From the IMG/VR virus record IMGVR_UViG_2772190778_000001: a stretch of DNA of 64,000 nt, one strand, 5' to 3'. Made by a program: the position numbers and the translations under genes. The notes under the pieces were generated by a model, which was not told where the DNA came from, ran no database searches, and saw only the letters and a program-made list of their open reading frames with translations. This DNA is from a virus (taxonomy: Duplodnaviria; Caudoviricetes). Each line of letters starts with the position of its first letter. Positions within the stretch are counted from its first letter, which is position 1. Of the stretch, positions 2,977 to 48,986 are shown piece after piece.

Positions 2977-3179
2977 GACCCGACATTAAGCCGGGGCGAC
3001 GGGCCAGATCAGATGAAGGGCTTCAGGGGAAGGGGGGCGCGCTGCGCGTGCCACCTTGGGTCAGACTAGCGCCCTCTAAGGGCATGCGGCAAGCCCGGAA
3101 TGCAAACGGCCCCAGAACGGCCCGCTGAGTGCGCTTCTGGCTCTGGCGGGGGTTGGGTCGCAAAATCCCCGATGGGGGT

Positions 3180-3197
3180 ATTAAATGGGTATTTAAT
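3180..3197. promoter_or_regulatory. AT-rich palindrome ATTAAAT-GGGT-ATTTAAT upstream of the head operon
   Basis: Perfect inverted repeat in a roughly 300-bp intergenic region strongly conserved in P2. Confidence 0.4.
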
Positions 3198-3273
3198 GAG
3201 GCGCTGAGAGGCCATTGCGTCTGGTGGGGTCGGTTGCAGGTGCACCTGCGGGGTCAAATAACCCCAAATTGCC

Positions 3274-3495
3274 TCAGGATGCCGATTTGTCGATGAAGGA
3301 CCGGAGAAGTGCGCGGCGCTCTTCGGGCGTCCTCTTGGGGCGGTCGAAATAGACCCGAAGGTCTTCGCGGCGGACCGCGACCAGCTCTTCCTTGTCCGGA
3401 TCTTCGTCGGGCAAGGCTTCGGCTTCACGCAATGCGGCCTCATAGGCCTCGCGGCTCCATTCGTCGGGGGGCTCAACCAGCAACGTTCGCATCAC
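3274..3495 (-). CDS. Small acidic protein, putative immunity partner of the MuF C-terminal domain
   Basis: ATGA overlap with MuF; homolog at 44250-44468. Confidence 0.7.
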   Translation of the reverse strand: MMRTLLVEPPDEWSREAYEAALREAEALPDEDPDKEELVAVRREDLRVYFDRPKRTPEERRALLRSFIDKSAS

Positions 3496-4823
3496 GCATC
3501 TCCGTTCATGGTCCTGACAATGGCGGCGGCAACAGCCCGGGCGGTCTCTTCTATGCGTTGGCGAATTGCTCGTGTCCGCGCGCCAAGGCTCTCTTGATAT
3601 AAGATCAGGCCCTGAGACTGCAAGACGTCGAGGACCGCGAGGCGCACCGCATGGTCGCGCTCTGTGTTGGTCAAGCCCGGGGCAAACTCGTCAATGAGTT
3701 CGGCCGCGACCTCCGCAAGTTCGCGCATGTTGCCACGGCTGGGCCTCAGCATCTGTGCCCGGAAAAGCGAGCCGTCGTGACCAACGGCAACGATTGATCG
3801 AACTTGGCGCTGGAACATGACCGCCATGTCATCCGGGCTGAGCGGTGCGGAACTGGGGTGATTGTGCACGAGGCCGACACCCGTGCCGCTCTCCAGCCGC
3901 CCGATTATGGAGGAGGTCAGTCTGACGCGCTTAGGCTTACCCACGCTCCAGTCGATTTCTTCGCCGGTCCCCAGGTCGAACGCGCCAAGATGCTCACGCC
4001 CGTCGCCAAGGCCCATGAGCCGGGCGCGCATGGCAAAGCCAAGCTCGGTCGCTGCCGCCTGGGCTGAAAGCCCGGCCGATAGCCTCGCGTGGCGCGCGCC
4101 GAGGTCAAGCCACGCATGGCCCGGGTTGCCGTCCCACGCGGGATCGACCCCGAGTGCCGTGGCTTCGATCTCGCCGGTGCGACGGTTCAGGACCCCGCGC
4201 TCCTCCAGCTCGAAATCCTCTGTCACCTTGAGGCCGCGCCGCTCCAGCATGCCTTGCGAGAGTTGCTGGACCGTGCAGCCGCAGCGCCAGCCGTTGGGGG
4301 GAAAGATACGAAGCCATGCCGGGTGATCGACGGGCAGGATCACCTCGTGATAGATCGCGTGTTCCTCGCGCTTGGTGTCGCGCTGGATCTGCACGTAGCG
4401 CAGGAAGGGAAAGGCGGCCTTGGTGCGTTGGATACGCGCCCATTTACCCGCAGCATGGGCCGCGCGCATATTGGCGTCGAAGATCACCCGCAGGCGGCGC
4501 GGCGAGCCAAGCCGGACATTCTTCATCTCGCCGGTCAGGGGATCGCGCTCCATTCCGCTGCCCCACCAGCCGAGCCGTTTCAACTCGGGCTCGAGGTCAT
4601 CCATGAAGCTGCCCATCGTGCCGCCATTGGCCAGCGCACGGTCGAGTGCCGCCCGGATCGTCTCCAGAACATCAGTCCGCATCGCCTTGGCGACAACGAA
4701 GTTGCTGGCATGTTCATTGCGCCAGACATCGCGGAAATCAAACCGCGCATCAGGCGGGGCGAGGCCCTTGGAGCGAAAGAACGACAGCGCGTCCTCAGGG
4801 CGCAGGCGCTGCAGGTCGATCAT
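3492..4823 (-). CDS. MuF minor head protein with C-terminal JAB/MPN-like domain
   Basis: RLRVIFDANMRAAHAAG, FPFLRY, PPNGWRCGC (MuF); GREHL...HNHPSSAPLSPDD in the extension. Confidence 0.88.
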   Translation of the reverse strand: MIDLQRLRPEDALSFFRSKGLAPPDARFDFRDVWRNEHASNFVVAKAMRTDVLETIRAALDRALANGGTMGSFMDDLEPELKRLGWWGSGMERDPLTGEMKNVRLGSPRRLRVIFDANMRAAHAAGKWARIQRTKAAFPFLRYVQIQRDTKREEHAIYHEVILPVDHPAWLRIFPPNGWRCGCTVQQLSQGMLERRGLKVTEDFELEERGVLNRRTGEIEATALGVDPAWDGNPGHAWLDLGARHARLSAGLSAQAAATELGFAMRARLMGLGDGREHLGAFDLGTGEEIDWSVGKPKRVRLTSSIIGRLESGTGVGLVHNHPSSAPLSPDDMAVMFQRQVRSIVAVGHDGSLFRAQMLRPSRGNMRELAEVAAELIDEFAPGLTNTERDHAVRLAVLDVLQSQGLILYQESLGARTRAIRQRIEETARAVAAAIVRTMNGDA

Positions 4824-6370
4824 GGGGCCAAGGACCCGGGCAGGCTGTCCGACCCATCTGGTGTTTCGCTGTCATCCACCACGGCCCCCAGCTCGCCCGC
4901 GAGACGCGCGGCGAAACTGGCCTCGGTCAGTAGATCAGTCATCGCTTGTCCGTCGCTTGGTGCGGCCGCCAAGGCGTCGAGACGGGCGCGCAGCGCCTCA
5001 AGCGTGGTGCCCGGTGCGACGCCACCCAGAAGGGCCGCGATATCTGCGAATAGCGGCTCGGCGGCCGTCTCGGCATGGCCCTCGGCGATGATCTCCGCCG
5101 CGAGTGCATCGAGCGCGCTCTCATGGCGATGCTCGGCAAAACCGGCCTCGGGCGGGTTCTCACCAGGTTGTGTTGGGTCGGGAGGGGCCGCGCGCTCATA
5201 CCCGTCGCCATAGGTCTCCTTGACACGGTCCTCGGACATGCGCCAGCCCATGCGGTGCAGCTTCTCGTCGCGGTCCACGGCGGCGGTTGTATCCTCCGGG
5301 TCTTCCATCTTGCGCCAGACCCTTGGCGGCGTTACGCCGGGGAAGTTGAACTCGGAAAGCTGCGCCACCGGCCCTTCGTTGAAGGACTGGCAGACGAGAT
5401 CCGCGTCTGACTTCTTGACGGCGTCGCCCACGTCATCATGCACCTCGGCCTGCGACCGGCTGGAGCCATTGTCGGTGGTCATGGTCTGCGACAGCACGAT
5501 TTTCGAGATTGCGGCATCCATCGTGTCGTGCAGCTTCTGGTAATCCAGAGAACTGGCACCCGAGGGCGCGGACAAAAGCTCAATATCCATGCCCTCGGGG
5601 ATGATGATCCCGGCCTCCGAGCGGATGGCCATCACGGCCTCGAGCAGCTTCTTCTGTTCCGCTTCGGTGGCTTGCGAGGGATACTTGCCCCGCGCGGTCG
5701 GCATGCCGAATTTGTCGAGGGCGATCAGCCAGAGCTTCAGCCCATTGCGCTTGAACCAGACCGGCCAATAGAGCCAATGCGCGAGGCCAAGCCCATAAGG
5801 CTCGTCGTCGTGATCCGCCCCGGTCGAGAACACCCAGAACTTCTCGGGCGGCATTTCCTCTCCGGTCAGCATATTGGAGAGGGTCAAAAGGCGCAGGCCG
5901 CAATTCTCGTCAAAGCGAAACCGTACCCGGTCGCGCACGCGGATTTCCTCCCAGCCCCAGAGCCGCCCGTCGCGGCGATACATCTGCTCGGCGACGGAAT
6001 AGCCATAAAAGAGGCCCCAGAGCATCTTCTCGGTCAGGCGGTCGAACTTCATGGCCGAAAGCTCGTCGCGCAGCCAGTCGGCGGCGCGTTTGCCCGCCGC
6101 CGTGTCCTCGCCCGGCACCACCTCCCATTCCCGGCTGGTGACGGCCGAGATGCGCTGCGTCATGACCGATTTGACCTGCGGATCGGTCAGGATCGGCTTG
6201 TAGATGTCAAAACTGCCACCGCCGCGCGTGCGCAGGATCGGGTCCGTTGGTTCGAGCAGCGGGCCGATCCATGGCCGGGTGATATCGCGACCGTTCTGGA
6301 TGCCCGAAAGCTCCATCGGGTTGCGCAGCCGTACCGAGCGCAGCCGCATGGTGCTGGTCTTTCTAGCCAT
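4820..6370 (-). CDS. Portal protein (DUF935, Mu gp29-like)
   Basis: PYGLGLAHWLYWPVWFK, DKFGMP..GKYP, SKIVLSQTMTT, SRSQAEVH motifs; start MARKTS. Confidence 0.92.
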   Translation of the reverse strand: MARKTSTMRLRSVRLRNPMELSGIQNGRDITRPWIGPLLEPTDPILRTRGGGSFDIYKPILTDPQVKSVMTQRISAVTSREWEVVPGEDTAAGKRAADWLRDELSAMKFDRLTEKMLWGLFYGYSVAEQMYRRDGRLWGWEEIRVRDRVRFRFDENCGLRLLTLSNMLTGEEMPPEKFWVFSTGADHDDEPYGLGLAHWLYWPVWFKRNGLKLWLIALDKFGMPTARGKYPSQATEAEQKKLLEAVMAIRSEAGIIIPEGMDIELLSAPSGASSLDYQKLHDTMDAAISKIVLSQTMTTDNGSSRSQAEVHDDVGDAVKKSDADLVCQSFNEGPVAQLSEFNFPGVTPPRVWRKMEDPEDTTAAVDRDEKLHRMGWRMSEDRVKETYGDGYERAAPPDPTQPGENPPEAGFAEHRHESALDALAAEIIAEGHAETAAEPLFADIAALLGGVAPGTTLEALRARLDALAAAPSDGQAMTDLLTEASFAARLAGELGAVVDDSETPDGSDSLPGSLAP

Positions 6371-8012
6371 CCGGGAACCCTCCAAAATCCAGAACTCCGC
6401 CACCTCGGGCAAAGCCCATGCGCCGCCCGCCCAAAGGGCTGATGAAGTCCTCGGCCGTCAGAGCGGTGCGCCGCCCGGTCGATTGAAACTCCATGGGCAC
6501 CACGTCCTGATTGCTCGCATGCCAGGCGAGCGCGCCTGCGATGGCGCTGTCGCCATGCCGGTCGAGACCGTCCGAGCCTTTGAAGCGGAAGTTCTCGGGC
6601 ACGCGAATGATGCCGTTTGTGTATTGCAGCGCCTGATGGTCGCGCAGCACGTCCTCATGGGCGGGCAGAACGATGGTGCGATCCGAGAAGGCTTCGATAT
6701 AGGGCGGCATCTCCAGCTCGTACCATGCCCTCGTGAATGAGACCTCGACGATCCGCGCGCCGTAGCGTTGGGCCGCGACCTCGGCGAGATAGGCCCCGTT
6801 GCCGGTGCGGTCCATCGCGCCCTTTTGGAAATTGGGCAGGCGGTCGAGCAGCCAGAAGAGCACGTCGCGCTGCTGGTCAAAGGGGATATTGCGCAGCTCG
6901 ACAATGAGCTTGGTGCGCCGGGTGAGATCGACGCCCTGCTCGAGAATGATGATGTCGGTGGCATCGCCCGAGCGCGCAAAGTCCTCGCCCATGAAATGCG
7001 GGCGCGTTCGGTCGAGGGTTTTAAGCACCGGTTCAAGGTGGGTTTTACACCAGGCTTCAGCGGCGGCCTTGCGGACGGGTTCGTCGGCATTCTTGAAGCT
7101 GTCGGGCTGCGTCCAGCGATGGAACGGGATGCCCTGCGCCATGCAGGCCTCGATTTGGACGCGGGTCAGGGCCGCGCCTTCCATCTCGGCGGGTTCCGCA
7201 TCAAGCTCTTGGCGCATCGCGGCCTCGCGCGCGCCGTAAGCCCGGCGCACAGTGGCCTCCCACGCGGCCTCGGCCTCTGGCGTCCAGGTCTTGCCCTGCA
7301 TCATGCAGACGCGTTTATAAAGCCCGTTGGCGACCGCGTCGCTGAATGTGTAGCGATGCACCGCAAAGCCGTTCTTGCCCGCGCGCGCCTCGCGGATCAG
7401 CTCGTTGAAGGCATTGAGATAACCGTTATGGGTCGAGATGATCCGGACCTTGCCGCCCCAGATCAGCATTGCGTTCACGGCGTCGATCACCTCGCGCACG
7501 TCCTTGTGGAACGCGGCCTCGTCGATCACCACGGTGCCCTGAAGGCCCCGGATATTGGCGGGGTTGGAGCTGAGCGCCTCGACGCGGAACCCGGAGGCAA
7601 AGCGCACGCGGTAGGCCGAGATGAACTTGGTGGTGCCGTCGGGCTGTTGATCCTCGAAGAGAAACTCCTCGATAGGGTGCGCCGCCCCCGCGATCACCCG
7701 CGCGAAATGCGCCACATAGCCAATGGCCTCGCGGCCCTTATCCTTGGTGTCGCCGATGTAAAAGCAGTTCTGCCCGCCCGCACCGCGCGCGGCGGCGGCA
7801 ATGAGGGCGCAGCCCAGCATCTCGGCAAAGGTGATGCCGGTGCGGCGACCCTTCTCGCAGACCTTGAGATCGCTCTCGTCGGCCAGCCAAGAGCGTTGAT
7901 GTTCCATCAGGATGCCGTCTGCCAGCGGATCGAGGCTCTCGGGGATCTCCGAGCCGCGCGGCAATTCCTCGGGGAGCGCGTCCGGGTCGCGGGTGAGGAC
8001 GGGGGCGGTCAC
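6363..8012 (-). CDS. terL: Terminase large subunit (Mu gp28-like)
   Basis: EKGRRTGIT Walker A-like, VVIDEAAFH Walker B, ISTHNG, GEDFARSGD, HGDSAIA nuclease motifs; GTG start at 8012. Confidence 0.93.
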   Translation of the reverse strand: MTAPVLTRDPDALPEELPRGSEIPESLDPLADGILMEHQRSWLADESDLKVCEKGRRTGITFAEMLGCALIAAAARGAGGQNCFYIGDTKDKGREAIGYVAHFARVIAGAAHPIEEFLFEDQQPDGTTKFISAYRVRFASGFRVEALSSNPANIRGLQGTVVIDEAAFHKDVREVIDAVNAMLIWGGKVRIISTHNGYLNAFNELIREARAGKNGFAVHRYTFSDAVANGLYKRVCMMQGKTWTPEAEAAWEATVRRAYGAREAAMRQELDAEPAEMEGAALTRVQIEACMAQGIPFHRWTQPDSFKNADEPVRKAAAEAWCKTHLEPVLKTLDRTRPHFMGEDFARSGDATDIIILEQGVDLTRRTKLIVELRNIPFDQQRDVLFWLLDRLPNFQKGAMDRTGNGAYLAEVAAQRYGARIVEVSFTRAWYELEMPPYIEAFSDRTIVLPAHEDVLRDHQALQYTNGIIRVPENFRFKGSDGLDRHGDSAIAGALAWHASNQDVVPMEFQSTGRRTALTAEDFISPLGGRRMGFARGGGVLDFGGFPDG

Positions 8013-8203
8013 GGCTGGCCCTGCTCGATTTGCCAACCTTTACCGGCGAGCGATTTGAACAGCAGCACTGCGATCTGAAGATCGACAGTGAGCCGGAGGC
8101 CCGGCGACGAACTTTTTTTCTGAACCGCGTCACGCATTGCAGCCGCTTCGGTTGCAACCCAGCTCCCGGTTTTGCCGTCCGGGCTTTTCCATCGAAAGGC
8201 CAT
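8009..8203 (-). CDS. Hypothetical protein (64 aa), P1-specific insert
   Basis: Overlapping stop/start junctions on both sides. Confidence 0.6.
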   Translation of the reverse strand: MAFRWKSPDGKTGSWVATEAAAMRDAVQKKSSSPGLRLTVDLQIAVLLFKSLAGKGWQIEQGQP

Positions 8204-8493
8204 TAGCGCCGCTCCCGTTCTTTCCTGAGCAGGCGCCAATTGTTCAGGGCCACGCCGCCGGTGATCGCGGCGAGCAGCATGATCCAGTGCTCTTGTCCCA
8301 GCCACGTGAGCAGAATGCCAGCGGCCAGCGCCACGCCGAGTTTGACGGCCCACCAGTTGCCGGTCAGCCCCATGAGGCGGGCCATGAGCGGGTTGGCCTC
8401 GACCAGCCCGCCGCGCAGGGCCGCGCGCGTGGTCGCCACGTCGGCGAATTGCGCCAGCAGATAAACAGCCCAGATGAAAACCAGATCAGACAT
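8203..8493 (-). CDS. DUF5658-like small membrane protein
   Basis: DVATT..AL.GG.VEANPLM motif and three hydrophobic segments. Confidence 0.7.
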   Translation of the reverse strand: MSDLVFIWAVYLLAQFADVATTRAALRGGLVEANPLMARLMGLTGNWWAVKLGVALAAGILLTWLGQEHWIMLLAAITGGVALNNWRLLRKERERR

Positions 8494-8789
8494 CAGGCAA
8501 CCTCCCAGTAGCCATCGCGCAGCCAGCCATGCCAGCCGCAACGCAGTTGATTGACCGACGGTGTGAGCGTCGGCTCGGACAAGGACCCGTCCCATTCCCA
8601 GCTCGGGCTGGACGCGGGCTTGCCGCGCAGGCCGATGATGATCCGGCTCGGACCTTCGCAGCCGCAGGGGCAGTAAAACCAAAAGGACGCGGCGTCGGGG
8701 CCACCTTGGGTCAGGTCGATGTGGAAACTGCCCGGCAGCTTTTGCCGCCGGAACTCGGCCGGGTTGGGGAATTCGATGGCGCGGATCAT
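8493..8789 (-). CDS. DUF6527-family protein
   Basis: CPCGC...W.W....PTLTPSVN...CGWHGWLRDG.W motif. Confidence 0.75.
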   Translation of the reverse strand: MIRAIEFPNPAEFRRQKLPGSFHIDLTQGGPDAASFWFYCPCGCEGPSRIIIGLRGKPASSPSWEWDGSLSEPTLTPSVNQLRCGWHGWLRDGYWEVA

Positions 8790-9025
8790 GGGCGCGCCTC
8801 GGCAATCCAGACCAGATAGGGCTGATCCCGCCACCATGCGACGGTGCAGTGAAGGCCCAGATGCGTGATGCGCTCCCTGCGCCCGAACAGGAATATCCGC
8901 ACACGGCGGGACAAGGGCGCGCGACGCCAGTTGTGGTCACCAACCATCACCTTCCCTCCGGTCGAGAGGTCCTTGGACGGTATTCCCGCGAGGTCATCCA
9001 TTGCTGTCGGTATCAATTCATCCAC
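8786..9025 (-). CDS. Hypothetical protein (79 aa), P1-specific insert
   Basis: GTG start overlapping TerS end; ATGA overlap with the next gene. Confidence 0.55.
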   Translation of the reverse strand: MDELIPTAMDDLAGIPSKDLSTGGKVMVGDHNWRRAPLSRRVRIFLFGRRERITHLGLHCTVAWWRDQPYLVWIAEARP

Positions 9026-43951: not shown

Positions 43952-44249
43952 GACCCGACATTAAGCCGGGGCGACGGGCCAGATCAGATGAAGGGCTTCA
44001 GGGGAAAGGGTGGGGCGCTGCGCGTGCCGCCTTGGGTGAGACTAGCGCCCTCTGAGGGCAGGCGGCAAGCCCGGAATGCAAACGGCCCCAGAACGGCCCG
44101 CTGAGTGCGCTTCCGGCTCTGGCGGGGGTTGGGTCGCAAAATCGCCGAGGGGGGTATTAAATGGGTATTTAATGAGGCGCTGAGAGGCCATTGCGTCTGG
44201 CGGGGTCGGTTGCAGGTGCGCCCGCGCGGTCAAACAGCCCCAAATTGCC

Positions 44250-44468
44250 TCAGGATGCCGGTTTGTCGATGAAGGACCGGAGGAGTGCGCGGCGCTCTTC
44301 GGGGGTGCGCCGGGGGGAGGGGCCGAACATGATTTCTAGCTGTTTTTTGCGCGCGGCGACAATCTCGGCTTTGTCCGGATCGTCGTCGGGCAGAGCCTCG
44401 GCGTCGCGCAGCGCGTCTTCGTAATCCTGGCGCGAGGAGCCTTGGGGTTCGGTCAAGAGATAAGCCAA
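44250..44468 (-). CDS. Small acidic protein, putative MuF immunity partner
   Basis: Diverged homolog of 3274-3495. Confidence 0.7.
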   Translation of the reverse strand: MAYLLTEPQGSSRQDYEDALRDAEALPDDDPDKAEIVAARKKQLEIMFGPSPRRTPEERRALLRSFIDKPAS

Positions 44469-44471
44469 GTC

Positions 44472-45797
44472 TCACTCCTCCAGCATCTCGGTGATTGCGC
44501 GGACAACCTCTGCAACCGGGCCTCCCACTCTCTGGCGAACTTCAAGGGCGCGCGCACCGGGGCTGTCCGAATATAGGATCAGCCCTTGCGCGCGCAACAC
44601 CTCGAGAACAATCAGGCGGATCGCAGTATCTCGGTCCGCCCGGTCCAGATCCGGCGCGATCTCGTCGAGCATTTCCCCCGCGACGTCCTGAAACCCCACG
44701 ACGTTAACCCGCGCGGACGACAGACGCACGGCCCTGTAGAGCGACCCGTCATGGCCCACCGCCAGAATGGAGGTGACGCGCCGCTCGAACATCGTGGCGA
44801 GGTCTTGCGGGCTGAGAGGCGCAGAACTGGGATGATTGTGCACAAGGCCAATCTCTTGCCCGTCGCGCAGGCGTTGCGTGACCTCCGGCCCGAGGCGCAC
44901 CCGGTCAGCACCCCCCACGCTCCAGTCGATTTCCTCGCCAGTCCGCAGATTGAACGCGCCAAGATGCTCGCGCCCGTCGCCAAGGCCCATAAGCCGGGCG
45001 CGCATGGCAAAGCCAAGCTCGGTTGCCGCCGCCGGGGCGGAAAGCCCGGTCGATATCCCTGCATGGCGCGCGCCGAGGTCAAGCCAAGCATGGCCCGCGT
45101 TGCTATCCCATGCCGGATCGACCCCAAGCGCCGTGGGTTCAATCTCGCCGGTGCGACGGTTCAAGACCCCGCGCTCCTCCAGCTCGAAATCCTCTGTCAC
45201 CTTCAGGCCGCCCCGGTCGATCATGCCTTGGGAGAGTTGCTGGACCGTGCAGCCGCACCGCCAGCCGTTGGGGGGAAAGATACGAAGCCATGCCGGGTGA
45301 TCGACGGGCAGGATCAGGTCGTGATAGCGCGCGTGGTCCTCGCGCTTGGTGTCGCGCTGGATCTGGACGTAGCGCAGGAAGGGGAAGGCCGCCTTGGTGC
45401 GTTGAATGCGTGCCCATTTGCCCGCAGCATGGGCTGCGCGCATATTGGCGTCGAAGATCACCCGCAGGCGGCGGGGCGAGCCAAGCTGGACGTTCTTCAA
45501 CTCGCCGGTCAGGGGATCGCGCTCTGTGGCGCTGCCCCACCAGCCAAGCCGTTTCAACTCGGGCTCGAGGTCATCCATGAAGCTGCTGAGCGTGCCGCCA
45601 TTGGCCAGCGCCCGGTCGAGCGCCCCACGGATCGTCTCGAGCACGTCAGTTCGCATCGCCTTGGCGACAACGAAATTGCTGGCGTGCTCATTGCGCCAGA
45701 CGTCGCGGAAATCGAACCGCGCATCGGGCGGGGCGAGGCCTTTGGAGCGAAAGAAGGACAGCGCATCCTCGGGGCGCAGGCGCTGCAGGTCGATCAT
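44472..45797 (-). CDS. MuF minor head protein with C-terminal JAB/MPN-like domain
   Basis: MuF motifs; GREHL...HNHPSSAPLSPQD. Confidence 0.88.
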   Translation of the reverse strand: MIDLQRLRPEDALSFFRSKGLAPPDARFDFRDVWRNEHASNFVVAKAMRTDVLETIRGALDRALANGGTLSSFMDDLEPELKRLGWWGSATERDPLTGELKNVQLGSPRRLRVIFDANMRAAHAAGKWARIQRTKAAFPFLRYVQIQRDTKREDHARYHDLILPVDHPAWLRIFPPNGWRCGCTVQQLSQGMIDRGGLKVTEDFELEERGVLNRRTGEIEPTALGVDPAWDSNAGHAWLDLGARHAGISTGLSAPAAATELGFAMRARLMGLGDGREHLGAFNLRTGEEIDWSVGGADRVRLGPEVTQRLRDGQEIGLVHNHPSSAPLSPQDLATMFERRVTSILAVGHDGSLYRAVRLSSARVNVVGFQDVAGEMLDEIAPDLDRADRDTAIRLIVLEVLRAQGLILYSDSPGARALEVRQRVGGPVAEVVRAITEMLEE

Positions 45798-47344
45798 GGG
45801 GCCACGGAGCCGGGCAGGGTGTCCGACCCATCTGTTGCCTCGCTGTCGTCCACCACGGCCCCCAGTTCACCCGCCAGACGCGCGGCAAAACTGGCCTCGG
45901 TCAGCAGATCAGTCATCGCTTGTCCGTCGCTCGGTGCGGCCGCCAAGGCGTCGAGACGGGCGCGCAGCGCCTCAAGCGTGGTGCCCGGTGCGATGCTGCC
46001 CAGAAGGGCCGCGATATCTGCGAATAGCGGCTCGACGGCCGTCTCGGCATGACCCTCCGCGATGATCTCGGCCGCAAGCCTGTCGAGCGCGCTCTCATGG
46101 CGATGCTCGGCGAAACCGGCCTCGGGCGGGTTCTCACCAGGTGGGGTAGGGTCGGGAGGTGCTGTGCGCTCATAGCCGTCACCATAGATTTCCTTTACGC
46201 GATCCTCAGTCATCTGCCAGCCGATGCGATGCAGCTTCTCATCGCGGTCGACGGCGGCGGTTGTATCCTCCGGGTCTTCCATCTTGCGCCAGACCCTCGG
46301 CGGCGCAACACCGGGAAAGTTGAATTCACACAATCGTGCGACAGGCCCCTCGTTGAAGGATTGGCAGACGAGATCGGCATCGGATTTCTTGACCGCGTCG
46401 CCCACGTCGTCATGCACCTCGGCCTGAGACCGGCTGGAGCCATTGTCGGTGGTCATGGTCTGCGACAGCACGATTTTCGAGATGGCGGCATCCATCGTGT
46501 CGTGCAGCTTCTGGTAATCAAGAGAGCTGGCACCTGCGGGTGCAGATAAAAGCTCGATATCCATGCCCTCGGGGATGATGATCCCGGCCTCCGAGCGGAT
46601 GGCCAGAACCGCCTCGAGCAGGGTCTTTTGCTCTTCCTCCGTCGCCTGCGCGGGATATTTGCCGCGCGCGGTCGGCATGCCGAATTTGTCGAGGGCGATG
46701 AGCCAGAGCTTCAGACCGTTGCGCTTGAACCAGACCGGCCAATAGAGCCAATGCGCGAGACCCAGCCCGTAAGGCTCGTCGTCGTGATCAGCCCCTGTCG
46801 AGAAGACCCAGAACTTCTCGGGCGGCATTTCCTCGCCGGTCAGCATGTTTGAGAGGGTCAAAAGGCGCAACCCGCAATCCTCGTCAAAGCGAAACCGCAC
46901 CCGGTCGCGCACGCGGATTTCTTCCCAGCCCCAGAGCCGCCCGTCGCGCCGATACATCTGTTCGGCGACGGAATAGCCATAGAAGAGGCCCCAGAGCATT
47001 TTCTCGGTCAGGCGGTCGAATTTCAGGCCCGCGAGTTCCTCCCGCAGCCAGTCGGCCGCGCGCTTGCCTGCCGCCGTGTCCTCGCCCGGTACCACCTCCC
47101 ATTCCCGGCTGGTCACGGCCGAGATGCGTTGCGTCATCACCGATTTGACCTGCGGGTCTGTCAGGATGGGCTTGTAGATGTCGAAACTGCCGCCGCCCCG
47201 TGTGCGCAGGATCGGATCTGTCGGCTCGAGCAGCGGGCCGATCCACGGACGGGTGATGTCACGCCCGCCCTGAATGCCCGCGAGCTCCATCGGGTTGCGC
47301 ATCCGCACCGACCGCAGCCGCATGGTGCTGGTCTTTCTCGCCAT
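45794..47344 (-). CDS. Portal protein (DUF935)
   Basis: Homolog of 4820-6370. Confidence 0.92.
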   Translation of the reverse strand: MARKTSTMRLRSVRMRNPMELAGIQGGRDITRPWIGPLLEPTDPILRTRGGGSFDIYKPILTDPQVKSVMTQRISAVTSREWEVVPGEDTAAGKRAADWLREELAGLKFDRLTEKMLWGLFYGYSVAEQMYRRDGRLWGWEEIRVRDRVRFRFDEDCGLRLLTLSNMLTGEEMPPEKFWVFSTGADHDDEPYGLGLAHWLYWPVWFKRNGLKLWLIALDKFGMPTARGKYPAQATEEEQKTLLEAVLAIRSEAGIIIPEGMDIELLSAPAGASSLDYQKLHDTMDAAISKIVLSQTMTTDNGSSRSQAEVHDDVGDAVKKSDADLVCQSFNEGPVARLCEFNFPGVAPPRVWRKMEDPEDTTAAVDRDEKLHRIGWQMTEDRVKEIYGDGYERTAPPDPTPPGENPPEAGFAEHRHESALDRLAAEIIAEGHAETAVEPLFADIAALLGSIAPGTTLEALRARLDALAAAPSDGQAMTDLLTEASFAARLAGELGAVVDDSEATDGSDTLPGSVAP

Positions 47345-47345
47345 C

Positions 47346-48986
47346 TCAGAATCCTCCGAAATCCAAGCCACCCCGGCCCCGGGCAAAGCCCATGCGCCGC
47401 CCGCCCAAGGGGCTGGTGAAGTCTTGAGCCGTCAAAGCGGTGCGCGGCCCGGTCGATTGAAACTCCATCGGCACCACGTCCTGATTGCTCGCATACCAGG
47501 CGAGCGCGCCTGCAATGGCGCTGTCGCCGTGCCGGTCGAGCCCGTCTGAGCCCTTGAAGCGGAAATTCTCGGGCACGCGGATGATGCCGTTTGTGTATTG
47601 CAGCGCCTGGTGGTCGCGCAGCACGTCCTCATGGGCGGGCAGAACGATGGTGCGATCCGAGAAAGCCTCGATATAGGGGGGCATCTCGAGCTCGTACCAT
47701 TGGCGCGTGAAGGAGACTTCGACGATCCGCTCGCCGTAGCGTTGGGCCGCGACCTCGGCGAGATAGGCCCCATTGCCGGTGCGGTCCATCGCGCCCTTGT
47801 AGAAATTAGGCAGCCGGTCGAGCAGCCAGAAGAGCACATCACGCTGCTGATCGAAGGGGATGTTGCGCAGCTCGACAATGAGCTTGGTGCGCCGCGTGAG
47901 ATCGACGCCCTGCTCGAGAATGATGATGTCGGTGGCGTCGCCTGAGCGCGCAAAGTCCTCGCCCATGAAATGCGGGCGGGTTGGGTCGAGGGTTTTAAGC
48001 ACCGGTTCAAGGTGGGTTTTACACCAGGCTTCAGCAGCGGCCTTGCGCACGGGTTCGTCGGCGTTCTTGAAGCTGTCGGGCTGCGTCCAGCGATGGAACG
48101 GGATGCCCTTGGCCATGCAGGCCTCGATCTGCACGCGGGTGAGGGCCGCGCCTTCCATCTCGGCCGGTTCCGCATCAAGCTCCTGGCGCATGGCGGCCTC
48201 GCGCGCGCCGTAAGCGCGGCGCACGGTGGCCTCCCACGCGGCCTCGGCTTCCGGCGTCCAGGTCTTGCCCTGCATCATGCAGACGCGTTTATAGAGCCCG
48301 TTGGCGACCGCGTCGCCGAAGGTGTAGCGATGCACCGCAAAGCCGTTCTTGCCCGCGCGCGCCTCGCGGATGAGTTCGTTGAAGGCGTTGAGATAGCCGT
48401 TATGGGTCGAGATGATCCGGACCTTGCCACCCCAGATCAGCATCGCGTTCACGGCGTCGATCACCTCGCGCACGTCTTTGTGGAACGCGGCCTCGTCGAT
48501 CACCACGGTGCCCTGAAGGCCCCGGATATTGGCGGGGTTGGAGCTGAGCGCCTCAACCCGGAACCCGGAGGCAAAGCGCACCCGGTAGGCCGAGATGAAC
48601 TTGGTGGTGCCGTCGGGCTGTTGATCCTCGAAGAGAAACTCCTCGATAGGGTGCGCCGCCCCGGCAATCACCCGCGCGAAATGCGCCACATAGCCGATGG
48701 CCTCGCGGCCCTTGTCCTTGGTGTCGCCGATGTAAAAGCAATTCTGCCCGCCCGCGCCGCGCGCGGCGGCGGCAATCAACGCGCAGCCCAGCATCTCGGC
48801 AAAGGTGATGCCGGTGCGGCGGCCCTTTTCGCAGACCTTGAGGTCGCTCTCGTCGGCGAGCCAAGAGCGTTGATGCGCCATCAGGATGCCGTCCGCGAGC
48901 GGATCGAGGCTCTCGGGGATCTCCGAGCCGCGCGGCAATTCCTCGGGCAGGGCGTCGGGGTCGCGGGTGAGGACGGGGGCGATCAC
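47346..48986 (-). CDS. terL: Terminase large subunit
   Basis: Same motifs as 6363-8012; GTGA overlap with TerS. Confidence 0.93.
   Translation of the reverse strand: MIAPVLTRDPDALPEELPRGSEIPESLDPLADGILMAHQRSWLADESDLKVCEKGRRTGITFAEMLGCALIAAAARGAGGQNCFYIGDTKDKGREAIGYVAHFARVIAGAAHPIEEFLFEDQQPDGTTKFISAYRVRFASGFRVEALSSNPANIRGLQGTVVIDEAAFHKDVREVIDAVNAMLIWGGKVRIISTHNGYLNAFNELIREARAGKNGFAVHRYTFGDAVANGLYKRVCMMQGKTWTPEAEAAWEATVRRAYGAREAAMRQELDAEPAEMEGAALTRVQIEACMAKGIPFHRWTQPDSFKNADEPVRKAAAEAWCKTHLEPVLKTLDPTRPHFMGEDFARSGDATDIIILEQGVDLTRRTKLIVELRNIPFDQQRDVLFWLLDRLPNFYKGAMDRTGNGAYLAEVAAQRYGERIVEVSFTRQWYELEMPPYIEAFSDRTIVLPAHEDVLRDHQALQYTNGIIRVPENFRFKGSDGLDRHGDSAIAGALAWYASNQDVVPMEFQSTGPRTALTAQDFTSPLGGRRMGFARGRGGLDFGGF

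What the first reader, a model, noticed from the sequence alone, without database searches (positions are those of the whole stretch)
3492..4100. MuF head protein carrying a JAB/MPN-like metalloenzyme domain in both prophages
After the MuF domain both copies carry a C-terminal extension with an upstream Glu (GREHL) and HNHPSSAPLSP(D/Q)D, the HxH...SxxD zinc motif of JAB/MPN/RadC-like proteins. These residues are retained while the rest of the domain is strongly diverged between P1 and P2 (44472-45080), unlike the N-terminal MuF part. MuF proteins with C-terminal toxin domains are established. Inference: this is a virion-delivered polymorphic effector, possibly an isopeptidase that reverses ubiquitin-like conjugation defences (CBASS Cap2-type or Bil-type), or a toxin.
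Basis: partly seen in the sequence, partly recalled or inferred. Interest (0 to 1): 0.78.

Follow-up and report, generated by a model that had tools for sequence, protein, structure and literature searches.

The report
Phage head protein carrying RadC-like enzyme
Both Mu-like prophages encode a capsid-internal MuF (gp30) head protein ending in an intact RadC-like JAB metal enzyme. A tiny acidic partner gene always follows it, so it looks like an injected effector with its own keeper: a new cargo type within the known MuF-toxin design.

Summary
Both prophages encode a 443/441-aa MuF protein next to a Mu-type portal. Its last ~200 residues carry E277, H320-N-H322, S329 and D332.

These residues are near-invariant in 144 homologues. 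The AlphaFold model (pLDDT 97) matches only JAB/MPN folds at the top of the rankings. No Pfam or NCBIfam model recognises the domain. Profile comparison places it nearest RadC (97%, against 72% for Prok-JAB).

The domain recurs on MuF, portal, InPase and PBECR3 carriers, inside giant polyvalent proteins, and alone. In every locus I could read, a coupled 60-73-aa acidic helical gene follows it.

Between P1 and P2 the MuF part is 93% identical, but residues 296-443 are 51% and the partner 62%. Across 11 relatives, partner identity tracks the C-terminal domain (r 0.92), not the N-terminus (0.47). One genome has four partner paralogues interleaved with an Imm33-like immunity gene.

Best reading: a capsid-carried, cassette-swapped effector with a cognate inhibitor or immunity protein, substrate unknown. 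The anti-ubiquitin-like isopeptidase idea is neither supported nor excluded.

This scan has already reported the same MuF-JAB-partner layout in about 30 other genomes. It is a new variant of a known kind.

The parts
3492..4823 (-). P1 gene F (Mu gp30-type MuF minor head protein, 443 aa) with C-terminal JAB domain
   Evidence: ORF and translation. Pfam Phage_Mu_F E 1.2e-9 at residues 55-185. PHROG 220 'minor head protein and DNA pilot' E 3e-72 at residues 3-256.
4269..4661 (-). P1 MuF (PF04233) domain, residues 55-185
3495..4091 (-). P1 RadC-like JAB/MPN+ C-terminal domain, residues 245-443
   Evidence: AlphaFold2 pLDDT 97. Foldseek and VIA top hits are all JAB/MPN. 169 homologues. hhalign to RadC 97%.
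3993..3995 (-). P1 codon of catalytic-type Glu277 (GREHL)
   Evidence: Conserved in 142/144 homologues.
3828..3866 (-). P1 metal-site motif H320-N-H-P-S-S-A-P-L-S329-P-D-D332
3274..3495 (-). P1 small acidic partner gene (73 aa); its GTG start overlaps the F stop as GTGA
   Evidence: Sequence. Homologous small genes follow the JAB domain in unrelated contexts. 51 homologues, none named. Model has an extended N-terminus plus three helices, pLDDT 87.
3327..3940 (-). P1 divergent mosaic block: JAB residues ~296-443 plus the N-terminal two thirds of the partner
   Evidence: No blastn alignment to P2 here, while flanks are 92-93% identical. Identities by segment.
44472..45797 (-). P2 gene F (441 aa), MuF + JAB domain
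44475..45065 (-). P2 RadC-like JAB domain, residues 245-441
44802..44840 (-). P2 motif H320-N-H-P-S-S-A-P-L-S-P-Q-D332
44250..44468 (-). P2 small acidic partner gene (72 aa, TTG start 3 nt after the F stop, GGAGGAG upstream)
   Evidence: The 81-aa ORF at 44230-44475 in another frame is Arg-rich and looks spurious.
4820..6412 (-). P1 Mu-type portal (gp29), directly upstream of F
   Evidence: Pfam Portal_Mu E 2e-111.
45794..47386 (-). P2 portal, same layout
   Evidence: ORF of identical length and position. DNA 92% identical to P1.

Best explanation
Gene F of each Mu-like prophage encodes the portal-associated MuF minor head protein. A catalytically intact metal-hydrolase domain of the JAB/MPN+ superfamily has been grafted onto its C-terminus. 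The domain belongs to an uncatalogued subfamily closest to RadC.

Shown here:
- the fold and the conserved E/HxH/S/D site;
- recurrence of the domain on several capsid-cargo carriers and inside polyvalent proteins;
- a translationally coupled small acidic three-helix partner gene that always follows it;
- exchange of the domain's variable part and the partner between related phages as one cassette.

Inferred:
- The enzyme is packaged with MuF in the capsid and leaves with the DNA into the next host cell, where it acts early on a host target.
- The partner binds and silences its cognate enzyme in the producing cell (immunity or keeper), as in MuF polymorphic toxins.
- The chemical target is unknown. 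My split is about 45% nucleic acid or nucleotide-linked substrate (the published prediction for RadC and Tox-JAB clades), about 35% peptide or isopeptide bond, and the rest other.
For: - Motif and conservation.
- Fold: model pLDDT 97. All top Foldseek PDB hits are JAB/MPN: CSN5, BRCC36, Rpn11, AMSH, PfJAMM1, BubC, RadC 2qlc. VIA-align top hits are Cap3 Z 7.7, PfJAMM1 7.2 and Rpn11 6.5, with RadC at 5.5, followed by deaminase-fold proteins.
- Nearest family: profile A1 hits PDB RadC 2qlc at E 6e-4. hhalign to RadC gives 97% (E 1e-10) against 72% for Prok-JAB.
- Carriers: 32 of 47 mid-length homologues have Phage_Mu_F. Others have a portal, Phage_min_cap2, VG15 or InPase. Giant homologues carry InPase or LPD38. 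Many 'minor capsid proteins' in BFVD share the domain.
- Head-module context: Portal_Mu and Phage_Mu_Gp27.
- Partner: found after MuF-JAB in both prophages, in two cultured phages (Rhodovulum vB_RhkS_P1, Pelagibaca vB_PeaS-P1), in a Zavarzinia locus and in another Mu-like prophage where it sits between F and Mu G. Also found after InPase-JAB, after PBECR3-JAB and after stand-alone JAB genes.
- Cassette behaviour: partner identity tracks the C-terminal domain with r 0.92, against 0.47 for the N-domain.
- Immunity-like array: four partner paralogues interleaved with an Imm33-like gene (E 5e-37) and a DUF4265 gene, behind a PBECR3-JAB protein and an LPD22/MuF_C polyvalent protein.
- A stand-alone JAB-plus-partner pair sits among housekeeping genes, like a two-gene toxin module.
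- Literature: MuF as a capsid carrier of effectors and RadC in polyvalent proteins (PMC5512222); MuF toxins followed by small immunity ORFs (PMC5576092); JAB-type toxin domains with immunity proteins (PMC3482391).
Against: - No toxicity, binding, packaging or activity data exist for this subfamily.
- Co-variation of two adjacent genes can arise from linkage alone.
- The domain is not basic (family median pI 6.4), which does not favour a general nucleic-acid enzyme.
- Fold Z-scores are middling (<8).
- The lysogen carries no obvious target system.
- A lethal toxin injected into the phage's own next host is hard to rationalise, so 'toxin' may be too strong a word.
Confidence: 0.68

Rival explanations
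1. Counter-defence isopeptidase. The injected JAB domain removes ubiquitin-like tags or CD-NTase conjugates made by Bil, Bub or type II CBASS systems.
For: - The best structural match is Cap3 bound to its CD-NTase (Z 7.7). BilC-like and BubC peptidases are also among the hits.
- All biochemically characterised JAB enzymes are (iso)peptidases (PMC5512222; bioRxiv 10.1101/2024.11.21.623953).
- P1 also carries a solo DUF6527 gene, the BubE Ser-His isopeptidase family, so this phage lineage may meet such defences.
Against: - The profile is closer to RadC than to Prok-JAB.
- There is no Pfam Prok-JAB hit.
- No association with E1, E2 or Ubl genes was seen in any locus read.
- A cognate, co-varying keeper and immunity-type arrays are not expected for a harmless deconjugase.
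- The Z-scores of Cap3, PfJAMM1, Rpn11 and RadC lie within about 2 units of each other.
Confidence: 0.14
2. Morphogenetic or self-processing role. The JAB domain works inside the producing cell or the procapsid, for example trimming F, the portal or the partner. The small protein would then be a cofactor, chaperone or substrate rather than an inhibitor.
For: - The gene sits in the head-assembly operon.
- JAB enzymes often need a partner subunit (established for Rpn11-Rpn8).
- The partner's extended N-terminal segment with a conserved Pro-rich motif could lie in a substrate groove.
Against: - Mu itself and most Mu-like phages lack the domain; hits cover only residues 1-237 in about 396 of 399 phage records. 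It is therefore accessory.
- The module also occurs away from any head genes.
- It occurs in polyvalent effector proteins with immunity-type arrays.
Confidence: 0.1
3. Catalytically irrelevant appendage, serving as a structural or portal-binding tail of MuF.
For: A few homologues have lost a His, for example an H-N-R variant.
Against: The full E/HxH/S/D set is kept in at least 97% of 144 homologues, even where the surrounding sequence is about 50% diverged.
Confidence: 0.03

Closest known systems
MuF polymorphic toxins of temperate phages (Jamet et al. 2017, PMC5576092)
   Same: N-terminal MuF head domain beside the portal, a variable C-terminal enzymatic domain, and a small ORF directly downstream that resembles an immunity gene. 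Found in temperate phages and prophages.
   Different: The cargo is a RadC-like JAB domain. The text of that paper lists nucleases, metallopeptidases, ARTs and RelA-like domains, and a search for JAB, RadC and MPN found no mention. The alleles here are all of one fold at about 50% identity rather than different folds. The host is a Mu-like transposable phage of Roseovarius. Toxicity is untested.
RadC domain in polyvalent proteins of phages and conjugative elements (Iyer et al. 2017, PMC5512222)
   Same: A RadC-clade JAB domain used as one module of virion- or conjugation-delivered multidomain proteins. Homologues here sit in 1,600-3,900-aa proteins with InPase, LPD38, LPD22 and PBECR3 domains.
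   Different: This subfamily falls below the Pfam RadC threshold. Its His-to-Ser spacing is one residue shorter and it has an extra GHDGS block. It comes with a dedicated small partner gene, which I did not find mentioned in the passages of that paper I retrieved.
RadC/YicR (Pfam PF04002; PDB 2qlc)
   Same: H-N-H-P-S signature, E/HxH/S/D site and JAB fold. hhalign probability is 97%.
   Different: There is no UPF0758/HhH N-terminal region. The host's own RadC is a separate 269-aa gene. The biochemical function of RadC is itself unknown (PMC11981726).
[quoted passage not shown] 2012, PMC3482391)
   Same: JAB-fold C-terminal toxin domains of polymorphic toxins, paired with immunity proteins, and predicted not to be Ubl peptidases.
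   Different: Those domains are delivered by RHS, T6SS or T7SS carriers rather than by a capsid protein. There is no Pfam DUF4329 match. The partner is an unrelated small three-helix protein.
Cap3 / BilC / BubC JAB deconjugases of bacterial ubiquitin-like defence systems
   Same: Fold and metal site. Cap3 is the best structural match.
   Different: There is no E1, E2 or Ubl operon context. Profile similarity is weaker than to RadC. The domain is phage-borne and fused to a head protein.

Membership tests
JAB/MPN+ (JAMM) metalloenzyme superfamily | Conserved Glu plus HxH...S..D metal-binding and catalytic residues | tested here: met
   E277, H320, H322, S329 and D332 are present in both copies and in at least 97% of 144 homologues.
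JAB/MPN+ (JAMM) metalloenzyme superfamily | Canonical spacing HxH-x7-S-x2-D | tested here: not met
   The spacing is HxH-x6-S-x2-D. The one-residue gap relative to RadC is visible. This is a subfamily peculiarity, not a loss of residues.
JAB/MPN+ (JAMM) metalloenzyme superfamily | JAB/cytidine-deaminase-like fold | tested here: met
   Model pLDDT 97. Top PDB matches are all JAB/MPN, although Z is at most 7.7.
JAB/MPN+ (JAMM) metalloenzyme superfamily | Zn2+ binding and hydrolytic activity | not testable with these tools
   Needs purified protein.
RadC-like JAB (Pfam PF04002) | Match to the family model above its gathering score | tested here: not met
   No hit for the window's domain even at E 10. 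Ten of 47 relatives give weak sub-threshold hits, best 0.002.
RadC-like JAB (Pfam PF04002) | Profile-profile relatedness and the H-N-H-P-S signature | tested here: met
   hhalign 97%, E 1e-10, against 72% for Prok-JAB. PDB 2qlc E 6e-4. One of the 28 RadC rows came from the unpublished genome G040; the result does not depend on it.
RadC-like JAB (Pfam PF04002) | N-terminal UPF0758/HhH region of cellular RadC | tested here: not met
   The N-terminus is MuF. The host RadC, with UPF0758_N, is a separate gene.
MuF polymorphic toxin | N-terminal MuF domain in a phage head module | tested here: met
   Phage_Mu_F, with Portal_Mu immediately upstream.
MuF polymorphic toxin | Variable C-terminal domain exchanged between relatives | tested here: met
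   93% against 51% identity. Mosaic block. The same pattern holds in other relatives, for example N-domain 94% against C-terminal domain 52%.
MuF polymorphic toxin | Small cognate immunity gene directly downstream | tested here: inconclusive
   A conserved, coupled partner gene is present. It forms an array with an Imm33-like gene in one genome.
MuF polymorphic toxin | Toxicity of the C-terminal domain | not testable with these tools
   Needs an expression assay.
Ubl-deconjugating prokaryotic JAB (Cap3/BilC/BubC; Pfam Prok-JAB PF14464) | Family-model match or closest profile | tested here: not met
   No Pfam hit. hhalign gives 72%, weaker than to RadC.
Ubl-deconjugating prokaryotic JAB (Cap3/BilC/BubC; Pfam Prok-JAB PF14464) | Operon with E1, E2, Ubl or CD-NTase genes | tested here: not met
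   None in the window or in any related locus read. The host genome lacks SMODS, Prok-JAB (other than RadC) and any further DUF6527.
Ubl-deconjugating prokaryotic JAB (Cap3/BilC/BubC; Pfam Prok-JAB PF14464) | Groove for a Ubl C-terminal tail | not tested
Tox-JAB-2 (DUF4329, PF14220) | Family-model match | tested here: not met
   No hit. There is only a weak language-model neighbour, 0.77.

The most novel reading that the evidence does not exclude
The JAB domain and its small partner form a self-contained, widely mobile two-gene module: a RadC-type enzyme and its specific protein inhibitor. If the domain is growth-inhibitory and the partner neutralises it, this would be the first genetically tractable RadC-clade JAB enzyme. 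Its substrate could then reveal what the near-universal but enigmatic RadC family does. It would also define a new class of capsid-injected effector in Mu-like phages.
Probability: 0.3. Interest if true: 0.75.

Novelty: new variant of a known kind. Interest (0 to 1): 0.5.

Why it matters
MuF-borne cargo domains are how many temperate phages send enzymes ahead with their DNA. Only a few cargo types have been tested. This cargo is an uncatalogued RadC-like JAB enzyme, missed by Pfam and NCBIfam, and it comes with an undescribed small partner family.

RadC is present in most bacteria (55 of 61 alphaproteobacterial genomes sampled), yet its biochemical function is still unknown. A toxin/keeper-style pair would give a phenotype and a specific inhibitor with which to look for the substrate.

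Two cultured marine phages, Rhodovulum vB_RhkS_P1 and Pelagibaca vB_PeaS-P1, carry the same arrangement and could serve as test systems.

Tried and rejected
- Direct sequence searches of the domain found nothing useful. Pfam at E 10 gave only a chance CsgE hit. PDB phmmer gave chance hits. NCBIfam gave none.
- The search for related loci with alignments A1 and A4 failed because no stretch was conserved enough. With the single protein it returned only two Roseovarius loci.
- Contexts of two stand-alone homologues were on contigs too short to use, except that one shows an overlapping 61-aa ORF.
- The Foldseek search of the partner model had no match below E 1.
- The 136-aa ORF at 3066-3476 and the 81-aa ORF at 44230-44475 were rejected as real genes. 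They have odd composition, and the in-frame 73/72-aa partner is the conserved one.
- The partner is not a ubiquitin-like protein. It is predicted helical with no conserved C-terminal Gly-Gly.
- The host genome was searched for Bub, CBASS and Prok-JAB systems and none was found. A permissive lysogen is not informative either way.
- Charge analysis gave no clear hint of nucleic-acid binding.
- The literature searches found no paper describing a phage JAB enzyme that counters Bil or CBASS.

Full report
**What is there.**
The window holds two related Mu-like prophages. Each has the order gp27-like protein, large terminase, Mu-type portal (Pfam Portal_Mu, E 2e-111), gene F, a small ORF, a ~300-bp intergenic region, then the I-like and major head genes.

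Gene F is window 3492-4823(-) in P1 (443 aa) and 44472-45797(-) in P2 (441 aa). Pfam recognises only Phage_Mu_F at residues 55-185. PHROG 220, 'minor head protein and DNA pilot', covers residues 3-256. The remaining ~190 residues match no Pfam or NCBIfam model.

Both copies contain G-R-E277-H-L and H320-N-H-P-S-S-A-P-L-S329-P-(D/Q)-D332.

A full HMMER scan of 1.8 billion representative proteins with residues 245-443 gave 169 hits at E<=1e-3. In an alignment of 144 of them, conservation was as follows:

| Residue | Conserved |
|---|---|
| E277 | 142/144 |
| H320 | 144/145 |
| H322 | 143/145 |
| S329 | 140/145 |
| D332 | 145/145 |

A second conserved block, G-H-D-G-S, lies at 348-352. The His-to-Ser spacing is one residue shorter than the textbook JAMM motif.

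**Fold.**
With 46 short homologues as the alignment, AlphaFold2 gave a model with mean pLDDT 97 and pTM 0.91. Foldseek against the PDB returned only JAB/MPN proteins at the top: CSN5, BRCC36, Rpn11, AMSH, PfJAMM1, the BubC peptidase domain and RadC 2qlc.

An independent all-against-representatives alignment ranked Cap3 (Z 7.7), PfJAMM1 (7.2), Rpn11 (6.5) and a bacterial Ubl deconjugase (6.0). AfJAMM, BubCD and RadC (5.5) followed, and then the related deaminase fold. The Z values are middling. Their consistency, together with the motif, makes the JAB assignment safe.

**Which JAB clade.**
- A profile of the family hits the RadC structure 2qlc at E 6e-4, aligned through H-N-H-P-S.
- Ten of 47 relatives give weak RadC hits and four give weak Prok-JAB hits.
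The family against RadC gave 97% (E 1e-10). The family against Prok-JAB gave 72%. RadC against Prok-JAB gave 77%.
- One of the 28 RadC rows came from the unpublished genome G040, and nothing rests on it.

The domain is therefore an uncatalogued sister of RadC. The host's own RadC is a separate 269-aa gene. RadC's biochemical activity is still unknown (PMC11981726). The Aravind group predicts nucleic-acid or nucleotide substrates for RadC and for the Tox-JAB toxin domains (PMC5512222, PMC3482391).

**Where else the domain occurs.**
- Of 47 homologues of 380-660 aa, 32 carry Phage_Mu_F at the N-terminus. Others carry a portal, Phage_min_cap2, VG15 or InPase.
- Giant homologues carry InPase or LPD38, both hallmarks of polyvalent proteins.
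- Predicted viral structures include many 500-630-aa 'minor capsid proteins' with the same C-terminal fold, at query-normalised TM 0.52-0.66.
- About 70 hits are stand-alone proteins of up to 275 aa.
- Only 3 of 399 phage records matching F cover the C-terminal domain. These represent two cultured phages, Rhodovulum phage vB_RhkS_P1 (held as two records) and Pelagibaca phage vB_PeaS-P1. Mu itself matches only residues 2-237, and its own C-terminus is an inactive PBECR domain (PMC5512222).
- The domain is rare, found in 10 of 400 other sampled alphaproteobacterial genomes (11 of 401 counting the window's own).

**The partner gene.**
Directly after F lies a 73-aa (P1, 3274-3495, GTGA overlap) or 72-aa (P2, 44250-44468) acidic ORF. 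Both cultured phages have a 60-61-aa gene in the same overlapping position.

Homologous small genes share a pattern of L-L-x-E/D-P-P...W...L...L-P-x-D-D-P. They follow the JAB domain in every other locus I could read:
- a Zavarzinia MuF-JAB locus;
- two stand-alone 200-aa JAB genes;
- a PBECR3-JAB protein;
- an InPase-JAB protein next to a portal and an ART protein;
- another Mu-like prophage, where the partner sits between F and a bona fide Mu G (Phage_tail_S) gene.

The family has 51 detectable members, all 'hypothetical'. Its median pI is 4.65. It folds as an extended N-terminal segment plus three helices, pLDDT 87, with no structural match.

**Cassette behaviour.**
P1 and P2 DNA are 92-93% identical on both sides but cannot be aligned across 3327-3940. 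This block covers JAB residues ~296-443 and the first two thirds of the partner.

Across 11 related F/partner pairs, mean identities are 0.79 (N-domain), 0.57 (residues 296-443) and 0.60 (partner). Partner identity correlates with the C-terminal part at r 0.92 and with the N-domain at only 0.47. Adjacency alone could also produce this correlation.

**Immunity-type context.**
In one genome (locus L024) a 1,355-aa LPD22/MuF_C polyvalent protein is followed by a 651-aa PBECR3-JAB protein. After that come four tandem partner paralogues, interleaved with an Imm33-like gene (E 5e-37) and a DUF4265 gene, all on one strand. Imm33 is an established component of polyimmunity loci (PMC3482391).

In another genome the stand-alone JAB-plus-partner pair lies among DapF, a MiaB-like enzyme, FtsY and a glycosyltransferase. 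That arrangement looks like a solitary toxin module.

**Interpretation.**
The best-supported picture is a capsid-carried MuF cargo enzyme with a cognate keeper or immunity protein, exchanged between phages as a unit.
- Packaging and ejection are inferred from what is known of MuF proteins (PMC5512222, PMC5576092).
- Inhibition by the partner is inferred from gene arrangement.
- The substrate is open.

DUF6527 is the BubE isopeptidase family (bioRxiv 10.1101/2024.11.21.623953). Three points count against the idea: the RadC affinity, the absence of any E1, E2 or Ubl context, and the dedicated partner.

**Relation to earlier scan notes.**
Other agents of this scan have reported the same MuF-JAB-partner layout in about 30 other genomes. 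First readers of this genome noted the co-diverging small gene and the DUF6527 gene. My analysis was carried out before I read the notes from other genomes, and it agrees with them.

**Verdict.**
This is a real feature with a correctly read motif. It is a new cargo-plus-partner variant of the known MuF-toxin and polyvalent-protein design. Its interest is moderate and comes mainly from being a possible handle on RadC-type enzymes.

Noticed in passing
window 8013-9023 (P1 only): There is a ~1-kb insertion relative to P2, between the gp27-like gene and the large terminase. It carries a 114-aa DUF6527 ORF (8493-8837(-), E 1.6e-16), the BubE Ser-His isopeptidase family of Bub ubiquitination-like operons. 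It has no E1, E2 or Ubl neighbours and is the only copy in the genome. A DUF5658 membrane-protein ORF lies next to it.
   Followed up: partly
window 2977-3273 and 43952-44249: This is a ~300-bp non-coding stretch between the partner gene and the I-like gene. It is conserved between the prophages and includes an AT-rich ATTAAATACCCATTTAATACCCCC segment in otherwise GC-rich DNA. Its position matches a Mu late (I-operon) promoter.
   Followed up: no
L024:4344-12798 (unnamed alphaproteobacterial genome G001): The locus holds an LPD22/MuF_C polyvalent protein, then a PBECR3-JAB protein. Next come four tandem partner paralogues interleaved with an Imm33-like and a DUF4265 gene. The first partner copy overlaps the 3' end of the 651-aa ORF in another frame.
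   Followed up: partly
L022:9816-10634 (genome G357): A stand-alone 200-aa JAB gene plus a 71-aa partner is inserted among housekeeping genes (DapF, MiaB-like radical SAM enzyme, FtsY, glycosyltransferase), with no phage genes nearby.
   Followed up: partly
L085:1643-5041 (metagenome contig): A prophage head module encodes a 453-aa protein with an ADP-ribosyl exotoxin domain after the portal. It is immediately followed by an InPase-JAB protein and a 60-aa partner. That makes two putative capsid cargo enzymes in a row.
   Followed up: no
L001:3995-5308 and L002:4001-5314 (Rhodovulum and Pelagibaca phages): In these cultured phages the motif reads H-S-H-L-x-D-S-P-L-S-x-x-D and the GHDGS block is S-P-G-G. 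The Glu is retained. This is a diverged but probably still active variant.
   Followed up: no
window 44230-44475(-) and 3066-3476(-): These long ORFs overlap the partner gene and intergenic region in other frames. They are Arg/Pro-rich and look like artefacts of GC-rich DNA. An automatic gene caller could pick them instead of the real 72/73-aa gene.
   Followed up: yes
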